Assembly: GCA_951406725.2 (NCBI GenBank)
Contig: OX597817.1
Coordinates: 26,660,001 to 26,724,000 of the forward strand
DNA from: Octopus vulgaris
Lineage: Eukaryota
Direction: 5' to 3'
DNA: 64,000 nucleotides
Below, one piece after another: positions 265 through 59,400 of the stretch (position 1 is its first letter; every line of letters begins with the position of its first letter). The position numbers and the translations under genes were made by a program. The notes below the pieces were generated by a model. That model saw only the letters and a list, made by a program, of their open reading frames with translations. It was not told where the DNA came from and searched no databases.

Positions 265-351
265 TGCAGTACGATCGTTTCATGCAACTCCATTTAATTG
301 AACAATGCAATCATTACATAAATTTAAAATGCAGTCCAATCCTCAGCTGCA
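265..351 (-). ncRNA. Type I hammerhead ribozyme, intact core
   Basis: Minus strand: tgcag-CTGAGGA-[58 nt stem II]-GAAA-cgatcg-TA-ctgca; 5-bp stem I, palindromic stem III. Confidence 0.8.
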
Positions 352-430
352 CAAAGACAGAGACAACGTTTTAGGTATAATTATGCTAATGTGTCCATCT
401 GTTTTAATATAATTAAATTCTATGCCTTTT

Positions 431-517
431 TGCAGCTGAGGATTGCTCTGCATTTTAAATTGATGTAATGACTGCATTGTTCAATTAAATGAAGTTGCAT
501 GAAACAGTCATACTGCA
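431..517 (+). ncRNA. Type I hammerhead ribozyme, decayed stem III
   Basis: tgcag-CTGAGGA-[58 nt]-GAAA-cagtca-TA-ctgca; the C15.2-G16.2 pair is lost. Confidence 0.55.
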
Positions 518-707
518 TACCTCTGGATATCCTTGTTGCTTATTTTGATTTTAATCACCATACTTTCAAATTGTATGGATAATACCTTACTAAATTCTGT
601 TATATATATATATAAGCAGACTTTAAACGACGACGACGATGATGATGATGATGATGTGTGTGTGTATAAATATATATATATATATATGTATTTACACACA
701 CATACAT

Positions 708-815
708 CACCATTCGTCGTTTAATGTCTGCTTTCCATACTGGCATGGGTTGGATAGTTTGACTGAGGACTGGCAAGCTAGGAGGTTGCACTAGGCTTCA
801 GTCTGATCTGGCAAC
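708..815 (-). mobile_element. RTE-tail retroposon fragment (family C)
   Basis: Reverse complement of ccaacccatgc..atggaaagc.gac.ttaaacga(tga)n. Confidence 0.7.
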
Positions 816-1149
816 AACAGTAACAATCGTCCCATCCAGGGCAGCCACATTATGTTGGCAAATAGTTCTTTATTAAAGAACTGTTATTGAATATCTCTCT
901 TTGAGAGATTTAGAAATAATAATCTTTCTATTTATTAGATCAGTGACTGTGTGTCACTTTGAAAATTATATATTTTTAAATGAGAATTCAGCAACATCAC
1001 GTAGCCAAGCAGCTACTATATGCTGATAAAGGGTAATAACCCTGAAACCTCTCCACAGATGTTTCTTTGTGCTGGAAGAGGGTGCTGGACTCCCTGTTCA
1101 AAAATATAAGGACACAGATATTGTGTCTTATAGCCAGCTGAAAAATATG

Positions 1150-56047: not shown

Positions 56048-56465
56048 TATATATATATATATATATATTATATATATATTATATATATATATATATATAT
56101 ATATATATATATATATATATATATATTATATATATATTATATATATTATATATATATATATATATATAATTAATCAATATAGGGTGGCAAAAAAAAAATT
56201 TTGTAGAATTCTTTTGCCACCAGCGGCCTAGTGGGAAAAAAATAAATAGTCATAAACCATTTCCAAGTTCAACATCACAATCAAGGAACGGCCATATATT
56301 GATTAATTATGAATTTTCTGGTTAATTCCGTAATGGAATCGGCGGCTTATATTTATTTGCTGACGATAAATTTGGCGCGAGTGCGACGATTTGAAAATTT
56401 TAGGTCAGATATCGCCGAGGCAGCAACGTGAATGCCTCGTGAAAAATATCTGTTCCGACTTGGCT

Positions 56466-56572
56466 ATTTCTTACTGATGAATCTAAGGGCCTATGGTGGA
56501 TTGGCTTGATTTAATTTAATCAGGTTAGTTTACCATTAAACGGAAGATGAAACGGTGCATCGTATAAGAAAT
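56466..56572 (+). ncRNA. Type I hammerhead ribozyme, copy 1
   Basis: atttctta-CTGATGA-atct[60 nt]agat-GAAA-cggtgcatcg-TA-taagaaat; 8-bp stem I; predicted cut after 56564. Confidence 0.9.
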
Positions 56573-56955
56573 TACAGGGTAAATGTTTTTTAATTTTCTC
56601 CTGGTTTACGGAATTGATGTTATTTTGCGGTTAAAGCTTTTGGCTGTTATTTCTATTGGGTGAATGGCCTATTATGGCCGTTCCTTGATTGTGATGTTGA
56701 ACTTGGAAATGGTTTATGACTATTTAATTTTTTCCCACTAGGCCGCTGGTGGCAAAAGAATTCTACAAAATTTTTTTGCCACCCTATATTGATTAATTAT
56801 GAATTTTCTGGTTAATTCCGTAATGGAATCGGCGGCTTATATTTATTTGCTGCCGATAAATTTGGCGCAAGTGCGACGATTTGAAAATTTTAGGTCAGAT
56901 ATCGCCGAGGCAGCAACGTGAATGCCTCGTGAAAAATATCTGTTCCGACTTGGCT

Positions 56956-57062
56956 ATTTCTTACTGATGAATCTAAGGGCCTATGGTGGATTGGCTTGAT
57001 TTAATTTAATCAGGTTAGTTTACCATTAAACGGAAGATGAAACGGTGCATCGTATAAGAAAT
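56956..57062 (+). ncRNA. Type I hammerhead ribozyme, copy 2
   Basis: Identical to copy 1, 490 nt downstream; predicted cut after 57054. Confidence 0.9.
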
Positions 57063-57271
57063 TACAGGGTAAATGTTTTTTAATTTTCTCCTGGTTTACG
57101 GAATTGATGTTATTTTGCGGTTAAAGCTTTTGGCTGTTATTTCTAGTGGGTGAATGGCCTATTATGGCCGTTCCTTGATAGTGATATATATATATATATA
57201 TATATATATATATATATATATATATATATATATATATATATATATATATATATATATATATATATATATAT

Positions 57272-59400
57272 AGTTTATAGTTTTTAGTTCCATTTATTCT
57301 TTTTCTCCATTCATAATTTTAAATGACGTTTACTTTCCATGACGCGTATTCTTTTTTTACATAAGTTATTTCTATGGTAACGTAATTTTGGTTTGATTTT
57401 TTTTACGGCTAAGAATTTAATTTCACTTTATAATTTGAAACTGACTTGTAAGTATGTATTTTATTTATCCTTATGTCATATTGTTATTTTTGATATTCTG
57501 GTTAATTACGATGTATTTAATGTTGTTTTCATAGGAGTGTTTATGTATATGAGATTGTGTGTGAGTTTTTAGTTGTATAATTTATTTATCTGTATGAGTG
57601 TGGGTGTGTAAATATTGTTGTATATATCGAGTTTAGTGAGTATGTATATGCGTATATGTGAGGGAGTATATGTATCTGTTGTGTGTGTGTGTTTTGCGTG
57701 TGTGTGTGTTTGTGTGTGAATGTGTATATGGGTTTGTTATTTAGGTTTTGGGATGTATGTGTTAATTTGTCTGTGTGGGGAGGGAGTGGATTTTGGTGTA
57801 TATTGAGGTTTATAAGTTAGTATAGGTATGTGTATAAGTCGTGGGTCTGTGGTTTACGTGTGTGTATTTGTGTGTGAATGTTTAGGTTAGGGGGATTGCT
57901 ATATAGGTTTGTTATAGAGTTTAGCAAAGGGAGATTTTATCGTTATATGTTTTTAAGAGTTTTGGTTTATCATGGTTTTTTTTTAGGGAATTCGTGGTAA
58001 TTTGTCTATTTTCGATGTTGGTTGTTTTATTGCATTGTTTCATTCATAATTTTTGAGTGGTGTTCGTTTTGCCACGTGAATATTATTTTTAATTCCATTT
58101 ATTCCATTTCTCCATTCATTAATTTAGAGATGTTCGTTTCCAGAGCGGTTATACTTTTTATACATAGGTTAAGTTCCTTGGTAAAGTAATTTTGTTTGGC
58201 GTATATGTTGAGGCTTATATGTACTTGTGGGTGTGTGTGAGTGGGGTGGGTGTTTGTATTTGTTATGGGTGTGTGGTTTACGTGTGTGTTTTTGTGTGTG
58301 AATGTATAGGTTAAAGGGATTGCTATATAAGTATGTTATAGTGTTTAGTAAAGGGAGGTTTTATCATTTCTGTTTTGTGAGTTTTAGCTTATCATGGTAG
58401 TTTTATAAAAGGATCCATTCATAATTTTTGTGTTTATTTGTCTGTGTGGGGTTGAGTGGGTTTTTGGAGTATATGTTGAGGTTTATATGTATGTATTGGT
58501 ATGTGTAAGTGGTGTGGGTATTTGTATATGTCGTGGGTGTGTGGTTTACGTGTGTGTATTTGTGTGTGAATGTTTAGGTTAGGGGGATTGCTATATAGGT
58601 ATGTTATAGAGTTTAGTAAAGGGAGATTTTATCATTATATGTTTTTGTGAGTTTTGGTTTATCATGGTAGGTTTGTTAAGGAATTCGTAGTAATTTGTGT
58701 ATATTTGCGATGTCTGTTGTTTTATTGCATTGTTTCATTCATAATTTTTAAGTAGTGTTCGTTTTACCAAGTGAATATAATTTTTAATTCCATTTATTCC
58801 TTTTCTCCGTTCATAATTTTGAGTGATGTCCGTTTTCTAGAGCGTGAATGTGGGTTGTATGTGTGTGTGTGTGGGAGTATGAATAAGTATTGTGTTGAAG
58901 TATTTAGCTATTTTATTTATTTATAGTTGCCTAGACGTTTTTATGTGTATGTATAGGGATATATATATAGGTGTGTGGTTTAGTGTATGTAGTTAGATAT
59001 GGTTATATATAATTAGGTATATGTGTATGGGTGTATATATAGTTTATTATTATTATATTATTATTATTTTTTTGTTTTGTTTTATATTTTATATTTTATA
59101 TTTAATTGTTGATAGGTTTATTTTAGTTTATATATTGTTTATATATTGATTATATATGGATTATATATAGGTTATATATGGATTATATATTTATATTTTT
59201 TCATTTATACTTTAATTGTTTTAAAATTATTATTTGTATATTTTAAAATATTGATATTTTAGATTGAAGTCCACCTGAAGATTGTCGATCAAGACAAGAA
59301 ACGATTGTAGTGGCGGGTTTTTTGACTATTTATTAAAATTTTATGTATTGATTAAGTCTTTCCTTGTTTGTTTTGCAAAATAGTGGTTTTGTCTCTAATA
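57272..59400 (+). mobile_element. G/T-skewed, internally repetitive element between TA tracts, ending in an HHR
   Basis: ccatttattc..ttctcc.ttcat at 57290/58095/58790; gtggtttacgtgtgtg at 57849/58273/58541. Confidence 0.55.
59271..59313 (+). ncRNA. Minimal type I hammerhead ribozyme, intact core
   Basis: ccac-CTGAAGA-ttgtc-gatcaa-gacaa-GAAA-cgattg-TA-gtgg. Confidence 0.85.

What the first reader, a model, noticed from the sequence alone, without database searches (positions are those of the whole stretch)
265..59313. At least 8 intact and 8 decayed hammerhead motifs in 64 kb, from several unrelated TA-targeting families
Intact cores: 265-351(-), 14893-14971(-), 15393-15467(-), 31318-31434(-), 54074-54152(+), 56466-56572(+), 56956-57062(+), 59271-59313(+). 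Decayed: 431, 7569, ~16873, ~20181, ~26215, ~27280, 35021, 55666. Stem sequences differ between families yet pair in each. Stem III is mostly self-complementary (cgatcg, ccgcgg, catatatg, cacgtg), and 7 of 8 intact sites are GUA. Seven have stem II of 46-88 nt, which short-helix descriptor searches could miss. Inference: this genome holds a large, diverse long-stem-II HHR population.
Basis: partly seen in the sequence, partly recalled or inferred. Interest (0 to 1): 0.82.

Follow-up and report, generated by a model that had tools for sequence, protein, structure and literature searches.

The report
Long-armed hammerhead ribozymes in Penelope retroelements
This animal genome holds about 37,000 hammerhead-type RNA motifs with an unusually long second arm, and those traced sit at the tails of Penelope-like jumping genes and of short tandem repeats; the standard Rfam search found none of them in this window, and they are predicted, not yet shown, to cut their own RNA.

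Summary
The motifs are real. An exact pattern (CUGANGA, 40-70 nt, GAAAC-N4-GU[A/C]) occurs 38,150 times in the 2.8-Gb genome, against 971 for the reversed pattern and 1,709 for a G8C control. Across six families, shared variants avoid the catalytic core (0 of 66 columns, against 71 of 562 elsewhere). The long stem II is typically a 4-bp helix, an internal loop and a distal hairpin.

Six of 8 decayed sites are confirmed.

Families A (265/431), G (7569) and F (59271, short stem II) are 3' ends of Hydra-type Penelope-like elements (PLEs). G is young, with an 899-aa ORF and a 55-nt stem II in 29 of 30 loci. B, D and E are 441-505-nt tandem units like non-LTR retrozymes. The six families measured end in (TA)n, and inverted copies are common.

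Likely mechanism: dimeric self-cleavage of tandem transcripts through palindromic stem III, then PLE-driven insertion. Cleavage is untested.

Hammerheads in PLEs and retrozymes are known. I did not find an abundant extended-stem-II class in print. Verdict: new variant of a known kind.

The parts
233..363 (-). Family A 3' end of a Hydra-type PLE, 5'-truncated; hammerhead 264-352, stem II 58 nt, stem III CGAUCG, GUA; proximal stem II damaged in this copy; (TA)n at 189-232
369..599 (+). Inverted partner copy of family A with a decayed hammerhead (core at 436, stem III mutated)
7405..7711 (-). Family G 3' end (92.6% to the young autonomous Hydra-type PLE); hammerhead core at 7645, stem II 55 nt, GAAA mutated to AAAA
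14860..15065 (-). Separate family related to A; hammerhead 14893-14971, stem II 54 nt, stem I only 3 bp; (TA)n at 14786-14858
15159..15293 (+).
15273..15678 (-). Family B, ~441-nt retrozyme-like unit; intact hammerhead 15393-15467, stem II 46 nt, stem III CCGCGG; short inverted piece to 15726
16815..17026 (+). Minimal-hammerhead family (12-nt stem II), decayed core near 16873
20052..20290 (-). Minimal-hammerhead family, decayed core near 20181-20210
26091..26318 (-). Minimal-hammerhead family, decayed core near 26215-26245
27278..27409 (+). Related minimal-hammerhead family, decayed core near 27280
31161..31502 (-). Family C, old; hammerhead 31318-31434, stem II 88 nt, stem III CAUAUAUG; stem I broken in this copy; carrier unknown
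34984..35191 (+). Repeat with a possible decayed short hammerhead at 35021 (tentative)
54046..54420 (+). Family D, ~505-nt retrozyme-like unit; hammerhead 54074-54152, stem II 46 nt, GUC; (TA)-rich run from 54413
55660..55730 (-). Possible decayed hammerhead near 55666 (unverified: no homologue covers it)
56166..56296 (-). Family E inverted 5'-truncated copy, next to (TA)n 56047-56168
56292..56781 (+). Family E 490-bp unit 1; intact hammerhead 56466-56572, stem II 68 nt; predicted cut after 56564
56782..57185 (+). Family E partial unit 2; intact hammerhead 56956-57062; predicted cut after 57054 (predicted monomer 56565-57054, 490 nt); (TA)n 57184-57272
57273..59410 (+). Family F: GT-rich 3' region of a young Hydra-type PLE ending in a canonical short-stem-II hammerhead (59271-59313); (TA)n from 59407

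Best explanation
These are type I hammerhead motifs, most with stem II extended by an internal loop and a distal hairpin, lying near the 3' ends of Hydra-type Penelope-like retrotransposons (families A, F, G) and of 441-505-nt non-coding tandem units (B, D, E) inserted in (TA)n; they are predicted to cut tandem transcripts into unit-length RNAs, likely as dimers paired through their palindromic stem III. Steps. (1) Shown: motif, carriers, tandem and inverted arrangement, TA targets, two alternative 3' ends per family. (2) Inferred from sequence conservation: the core has been under purifying selection in the master lineages. (3) Inferred from known type I hammerheads: two motifs of one tandem transcript swap stem III strands and cut after GUA/GUC. 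For the short units the monomer would then circularise, as in coral and mussel retrozymes. (4) Inferred from known PLE biochemistry: the PLE RT/GIY-YIG protein nicks (TA)n and copies the RNA from an internal start. The insertions measured run 30-290 nt past the cut site, so the template would be uncut, multimeric or circular. (5) Least certain: the internal loop stands in for terminal loop 2 and the distal hairpin is a tolerated extension.
For: Pattern excess: 38,150 vs 971 and 1,709. Of the first 40 listed matches, 34 show stem III, which the pattern did not constrain: 21 perfect palindromes, 10 with G-U, 3 neither (my count). Shared variants: 0 of 66 core columns vs 71 of 562 others, Fisher p=3e-4; the free position N7 varies in A, B and D, and H17 is A or C in E. 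Double compensatory changes in B: stem III CUGCAG/CCGCGG in 19/15 copies, stem I C-G/U-A in 26/6. The distal stem II, not used by the descriptor, folds better than shuffles: mean z -2.5, 10 of 16 clusters below -2. Carriers: G has 899-aa open frames, 3,624-bp tandem spacing and the motif ~600 nt after the nuclease in 29 of 30 loci. A walks upstream into a decayed RT plus nuclease (nuclease hits in 12 of 30 loci; nuclease and hammerhead on one strand in 8 of 16 chosen loci). Tandem periods are B ~441, D ~505, E ~491; inverted copies in 16/30, 18/30 and 23/30 loci. Monomer stem III is predicted at probability 0.03 or less in 6 of 7 families, as expected for dimer-type motifs (PMC4209133).
Against: No cleavage or transcription evidence was obtained. 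Metazoan PLE hammerheads cut weakly in vitro (PMC4209133). The Anolis PLE hammerhead needs protein, is dispensable for insertion in vitro, and no RNA-seq ends were seen at its cut site (PMC11167929). The hammerhead fold is not the predicted minimum-energy structure for most families. Covariation within families is thin: 2 double changes, 13 one-sided pair-keeping changes and 8 shared breaks, 5 of them in old family C. Distal folding is weak in G (z -0.6), A (-1.7) and C (-1.2). No tertiary contact was demonstrated: U1.7 in 11 of 16, p=0.08; pseudoknot tests p of 0.06 or more. The autonomous partner of B, C, D and E was not found. Only 3 of 13 other Hydra-type nuclease remnants had a long-stem motif downstream. 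A young Neptune-type PLE thrives here with no CUGANGA core within 900 nt of its longest open frame in the 27 of 30 loci scored.
Confidence: 0.75

Rival explanations
1. The motifs cut efficiently as monomers, because the internal loop of the extended stem II docks on stem I as loop 2 does in extended hammerheads. The palindromic stem III is incidental.
For: The proximal stem II is about 4 bp, placing the internal loop where loop 2 normally lies. YUAA lies on the 3' side of that loop in 10 of 16 clusters vs 2 on the 5' side (motif spotted by eye first, so post hoc). E could form 3-4 bp of stem III alone. In G, tandem motifs are 3.6 kb apart.
Against: Stem III is only 2-3 bp in most families and palindromic far above chance. 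U1.7 and pseudoknot tests were inconclusive.
Confidence: 0.15
2. The motif is kept as a binding or priming structure for the PLE protein and cuts little or not at all in vivo.
For: All insertions retain the cut site plus downstream sequence. Anolis PLE hammerhead mutants insert normally in vitro. A Neptune-type family lacks the motif near its ORF end.
Against: The conserved positions are exactly the catalytic ones, while N7 and H17 (A/C) vary as catalysis allows.
Confidence: 0.08
3. The motifs are the missing hammerheads of Naiad-clade PLEs (the 'HHR_half_core' cases).
For: Naiads target (TA)n, and two cephalopod Naiads are flagged HHR_half_core with 35-50-nt spacing.
Against: In the Naiad_Ovul consensus GAAA precedes CUGAUGA, the opposite order. 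Six family motifs were absent from the supplement (line breaks could hide a match). Every carrier ORF found has the nuclease at the C-terminus with Hydra features.
Confidence: 0.01
4. The motifs are chance matches in AT-rich repeats, amplified passively.
For: Amplification by transposition inflates any motif; the descriptor itself selects for pairing.
Against: At least 15 long-stem clusters with different stems share the core; 39-fold excess over the reversed pattern; unconstrained palindromes and distal folding.
Confidence: 0.01

Closest known systems
Type I hammerheads in the pseudo-LTRs of Hydra-clade Penelope-like elements (Craig et al. 2021, PMC8557442, File S2)
   Same: Near the 3' end of a C-terminal-nuclease PLE that targets (TA)n; tandem and inverted copies; 3-bp stem III; extra U after A9 and before GAAA in many (also in families A and B).
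   Different: The listed Hydra motifs have stem II regions of roughly 12-25 nt with a terminal loop; here 45-97 nt with an internal loop and distal hairpin. Elements here are longer (G 3.6 kb, A ~6.4 kb; described Hydra mostly under 3 kb). Two spike-moss PLE-X motifs and Chlamys-3_cBra in that table already deviate with longer stem II or loops, so single precedents exist.
Non-LTR retrozymes of animals (Cervera and de la Pena 2020, PMC7229834; Li et al. 2026 preprint 10.64898/2026.07.22.740005)
   Same: Non-coding tandem units, one type I hammerhead per unit, low GC, co-occurring with PLEs; very high copy numbers are known (126,247 in axolotl).
   Different: Units here are 441-505 nt (about 300-390 described), carry the extended stem II, and form short tail-out palindromic arrays inside (TA)n. 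Circular RNA is not shown here.
Minimal PLE hammerheads (Cervera and de la Pena 2014, PMC4209133)
   Same: The window's 16873/20181/26215/27280 sites are decayed members of this kind; palindromic stem III and the dimer model also apply.
   Different: Minimal motifs have almost no stem III and a 6-8-bp stem II; the long class has a 2-5-bp stem III and a multi-part stem II.
PAc, the Poseidon-clade PLE of Anolis (Frangieh et al. 2024, PMC11167929)
   Same: AT-rich target nicking, internal initiation of reverse transcription giving two 3' ends ('tail'), hammerhead in the pLTR.
   Different: Different clade; its hammerhead overlaps the ORF start and is short-stemmed.

Membership tests
Type I hammerhead ribozyme | Core CUGANGA...GAAA...UH in type I order | tested here: met
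Type I hammerhead ribozyme | Three helices around the core | tested here: met
   5 of 8 window sites by strict descriptor; family copies
Type I hammerhead ribozyme | Core conserved while N7, H17 and stems vary | tested here: met
   0 of 66 vs 71 of 562 columns, p=3e-4
Type I hammerhead ribozyme | Tertiary contact between stems I and II | tested here: inconclusive
   U1.7 11 of 16, p=0.08 (the U1.7 criterion is recalled, not read); pseudoknot p of 0.06 or more
Type I hammerhead ribozyme | Site-specific self-cleavage | not testable with these tools
   needs in vitro assay or cyclic-phosphate sequencing
Rfam hammerhead models | Match at gathering score | tested here: not met
   0 matches; no hammerhead family among the 150 listed of 152 rows at E<=10
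Hydra-clade PLE (families A, F, G) | Single RT then C-terminal GIY-YIG-type nuclease | tested here: met
   G intact; F with one frame change; A decayed
Hydra-clade PLE (families A, F, G) | DKG motif changed to DKT | tested here: met
   SDKT in G and F, ADKT in A (definition)
Hydra-clade PLE (families A, F, G) | No CCHH in the nuclease; CxxC and CxH near its end | tested here: met
   CNLC/CPH in G, CYLC/CRH in F, CELC/CVH in A, read by eye
Hydra-clade PLE (families A, F, G) | CxCX5C linker | tested here: inconclusive
   present in A and F, not found in G
Hydra-clade PLE (families A, F, G) | Insertion into (TA)n, tandem/inverted copies | tested here: met
Hydra-clade PLE (families A, F, G) | Phylogenetic placement with reference Hydra proteins | not tested
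   reference proteins were only read in the supplement and compared by eye
Non-LTR retrozyme (B, D, E) | Short tandem unit with one type I hammerhead, no PLE ORF | tested here: met
   periods 441/505/491 in 6/30, 11/30 and 23/30 loci; up to 8 tandem E units; no linked PLE ORF seen
Non-LTR retrozyme (B, D, E) | Transcription and accumulation as circular RNA | not testable with these tools
   only assembled contigs of runs of unrecorded kind were available
Naiad-clade PLE | N-terminal nuclease upstream of RT | tested here: not met
   nuclease is C-terminal in A, F, G; no carrier found for B-E

The most novel reading that the evidence does not exclude
The stem II extension is a working module, not a tolerated insertion. 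Its internal loop docks on stem I and its distal hairpin is gripped by the Hydra PLE protein, making a protein-gated hammerhead. The 441-505-nt units are circular-RNA parasites that captured this module to recruit the same protein. This architecture would be a major hammerhead form in this lineage and hidden from Rfam and short-loop descriptors, so ribozyme counts for related genomes (235 Hammerhead_1 loci reported for giant squid) would be far too low.
Probability: 0.2. Interest if true: 0.72.

Novelty: new variant of a known kind. Interest (0 to 1): 0.52.

Why it matters
The role of hammerheads in Penelope-like elements is still open: cleavage is weak in vitro and dispensable in the one reconstituted system. 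This genome supplies a young autonomous element (family G, intact 899-aa ORF) with its own hammerhead, plus young non-autonomous units, so processing, circularisation and protein dependence can be tested directly. It also shows a blind spot: tens of thousands of motifs with a 40-70-nt stem II, of a kind Rfam did not report in this window. At least 15 sequence families form a natural set of variants for how far stem II can be extended.

Tried and rejected
Naiad origin: suggested by 'HHR_half_core' flags, rejected.

Neptune origin of family C: the Neptune ORF upstream in L136 has its own minimal motif and ends at a TA run before C. Hydra remnant upstream of B in L072/L180: separated by TA and unrelated sequence. 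Nuclease remnant beside D in L192: separated by a TA run.

A GGCU/GGCC pseudoknot seen by eye in B and E: not supported across 16 clusters, and in B the GGCU can pair in an extended stem I. U1.7 enrichment inconclusive.

Expression: no RNA holder listed. Four runs laid were contigs only, kind guessed; they cover the E unit in two coded organisms but show no ends, strand or level.

Pfam gave only a weak GIY-YIG hit for the Neptune piece and nothing for the Hydra-type RT. The repeat finder was swamped by microsatellites. The unbiased sample stayed at 600 kb, and partners of B, C, D and E were not walked. Lünse et al. 2017 (PMC5785218) is not held. Earlier-findings look-ups returned nothing on this genome or motif.
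Full report
Setting. The window is G000:C4:26660001-26724000 of a 2.8-Gb assembly in 227 contigs, about 35% GC and full of microsatellites. I take the host to be an octopus or relative. This is inference from genome size: PMC13282606 gives 19 Mb as 0.68% of the Octopus vulgaris genome. No call names the organism.

Observation. All eight 'intact' sites show the type I order with stem II of 58, 54, 46, 88, 46, 68, 68 and 16 nt, and seven have GUA. 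A first descriptor gave 4, 5 and 7 hits at three stringencies against 0.2, 0.94 and 1.42 in 100 shuffles. A refined one gave 5 against 0.05. Rfam found nothing at gathering score and no hammerhead among the 150 listed of 152 rows at E<=10. Three of the eight are damaged copies. 31318 has a broken stem I where many relatives pair AACC with GGUU (the middle of that output was cut). 265 has changes in proximal stem II. 14893 has a 3-bp stem I and a stem II a few bases shorter than its relatives. Of the eight decayed sites, 431 and 7569 are long-stem family copies, four are 12-nt-stem minimal hammerheads, and 35021 and 55666 stay unverified.

Genome-wide count. The exact pattern CTGANGA-N40..70-GAAAC-NNNN-GTM, which demands no pairing, matches 18,966 + 19,184 times. 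Read backwards it matches 472 + 499 times. With G8 changed to C it matches 846 + 863 times, no more than its own reverse, 832 + 913. Some matches are composites of a short motif with a later GAAAC, and families C and E fall outside the pattern. Of the first 40 listed matches, 34 show stem III: 21 perfect palindromes, 10 with G-U pairs, 3 neither (counted by eye). Sixty 10-kb stretches at round coordinates gave 16 strict hits, 8 with stem II over 30 nt (12 shuffles: mean 0.42, max 2) and 8 short (shuffles 0). That extrapolates to 37,000 long motifs, range 16,000-74,000. The window holds 4 pattern matches against 0.87 expected, so it is a rich window, not a typical one.

Families. DNA searches returned 2,582 first-look candidates for E, 1,461 for A, 1,422 for B, 3,339 for D, 281 for C and 1,077 for F; 40 were scored each, and these are not copy numbers. 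Copies share 3' ends and are cut off at varied 5' points. Each family measured has two 3' ends about 90-160 nt apart before (TA)n, clearly in E, G, A, F and B and less so in D and C. Inverted neighbours occur in 16/30 B, 11/25 C, 18/30 D and 23/30 E loci. Same-strand extra copies give periods of about 441 (B, 6 loci), 505 (D, 11 of 14) and 491 (E, 23); C shows none. One E insertion has eight tandem units facing away from 1.4 inverted units, with TA on both sides. This is the tandem, inverted and tail layout described for PLEs (PMC8557442; PMC11167929).

Carriers. F is the end of a GT-rich region behind an RT and nuclease. Two upstream walks from A reached a nuclease remnant in 12 of 30 loci. 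In 16 longer stretches chosen from these loci, nuclease and A hammerhead lay on one strand in 8. L347 holds RT, nuclease, about 3.4 kb of 3' region, hammerhead and TA, plus an inverted truncated copy. A nuclease in the unbiased sample (L222) led to family G: 17,424 candidates, 150 scored at 98-100% identity, open frames up to about 900 aa, tandem spacing 3,624 bp. 29 of 30 loci carry the 55-nt-stem motif about 600 nt after the nuclease, and window 7405-7711 is 92.6% identical to it. The Hydra features listed by Craig et al. are met for DKT, no CCHH, CxxC/CxH and TA targeting; the CxCX5C linker is in A and F but not G. No tree was built. Among 13 other Hydra-type nuclease remnants, 3 had a long-stem motif downstream (L040 31 nt, L049 53 nt, L222) and 10 did not. 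No partner was found for B, C, D or E.

Structure and selection. All loci held (about 2 Mb, mostly chosen by family) gave 347 hits in 27 clusters, 16 with stem II of 30 nt or more, 8 of them single copies. Most fold as a roughly 4-bp helix, an internal loop and a distal hairpin; clusters of 26-27 nt show the same plan in small. The distal part, unused by the descriptor, has mean z -2.5 against shuffles, with 10 of 16 below -2, but G, A and C are weak. In six families (23-82 copies each), variants shared by at least 10% of copies hit 0 of 66 core columns and 71 of 562 others (p=3e-4). N7 varies in A, B and D, and H17 is A or C in E. Paired positions showed 2 double compensations (both in B), 13 one-sided pair-keeping changes, 7 gains and 8 breaks; the structure came from one representative, so this is modest support. 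Tests for a tertiary contact were inconclusive.

Mechanism. Shown: motif, carriers, layout and core conservation. Inferred: read-through transcripts of tandem units carry two or more motifs, whose weak palindromic stem III (monomer probability 0.03 or less in 6 of 7) pairs between copies, as in the dimer model (PMC4209133). Cutting would release unit-length RNA, 490 nt for window E (56565-57054), which in retrozymes circularises (PMC7229834). The PLE protein would nick (TA)n and start reverse transcription internally. Because insertions extend 30-290 nt beyond the cut site, the template cannot be a linear RNA ending at that site. Against a needed role: weak in vitro rates, dispensability in the Anolis system, and a young Neptune-type family here (17,751 candidates) with no core within 900 nt of its longest open frame in the 27 of 30 loci scored.

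Comparison and novelty. Hammerheads in PLE pLTRs, including Hydra, and in animal retrozymes are established, at even higher copy numbers. The Hydra motifs tabulated by Craig et al. have short stem II; three plant motifs there are marked as deviating, with longer stems or loops, so an extended stem II has single precedents. A U-U pair at the base of stem II is also known. I did not find an abundant extended-stem-II class, or any octopus hammerhead survey, in searches. An O. vulgaris repeat annotation does not mention ribozymes in its main text, and the giant squid paper reports 235 Hammerhead_1 loci.

What I read. PMC4209133 part 1 of 4 and passages; PMC8557442 passages, section 11 and supplement parts 1, 2 and 24 with term searches; the 2026 preprint part 1 of 5 and passages; passages only of PMC7229834, PMC11167929, PMC3088659, PMC6962438, PMC10085705 and PMC13282606. 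Not seen: Lünse 2017, Arkhipova 2017, the supplementary figures of Cervera 2014 and 2020, the preprint's supplements and Repbase. Any of these could hold long-stem examples.

Verdict. This is a new variant of a known kind: interest 0.52.

Noticed in passing
L185:5219-6800 (G000:C4, just right of the window) and L257-L286: A young Neptune-type PLE (846-aa ORF in L278, 17,751 candidates) in inverted arrangement. No hammerhead core follows its ORF, but a GC-rich, repeat-like stretch of about 150 nt lies right after the stop and could be another RNA structure.
   Followed up: partly
window 1443-3215 (+): 591-aa open frame with a Pfam RVT_1 domain (E 1.4e-32), a non-PLE reverse transcriptase, probably a LINE.
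   Followed up: partly
   Followed up: partly
window 57273-59230; L307:228-1500: Hydra-type families F and A have kilobase-long 3' regions built of internal duplications (GT-rich in F, AT-rich in A), unlike the short described Hydra elements.
   Followed up: partly
L393:1038-3641 (-); L328, L346: Hydra-type ORFs here carry long low-complexity inserts (Asn-rich in A and F, Ser-rich in G) between RT thumb and nuclease; G lacks the CxCX5C linker yet still targets (TA)n.
   Followed up: no
L136:930-975: Minimal hammerhead-like motif behind a Neptune-type ORF with U in place of C3 (UUGAAGA); may be decay or a variant.
   Followed up: no
window 7086-7336, 8203-8609, 17019-17261, 18960-19368, 21619-22054, 32536-32938, 43808-44267, 60645-61056: Many copies of two or three short interspersed repeat families of about 200-250 nt.
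   Followed up: no
window 30176-30540: Two tandem copies of a 185-nt repeat that also occurs dispersed and inverted elsewhere in the window.
   Followed up: no
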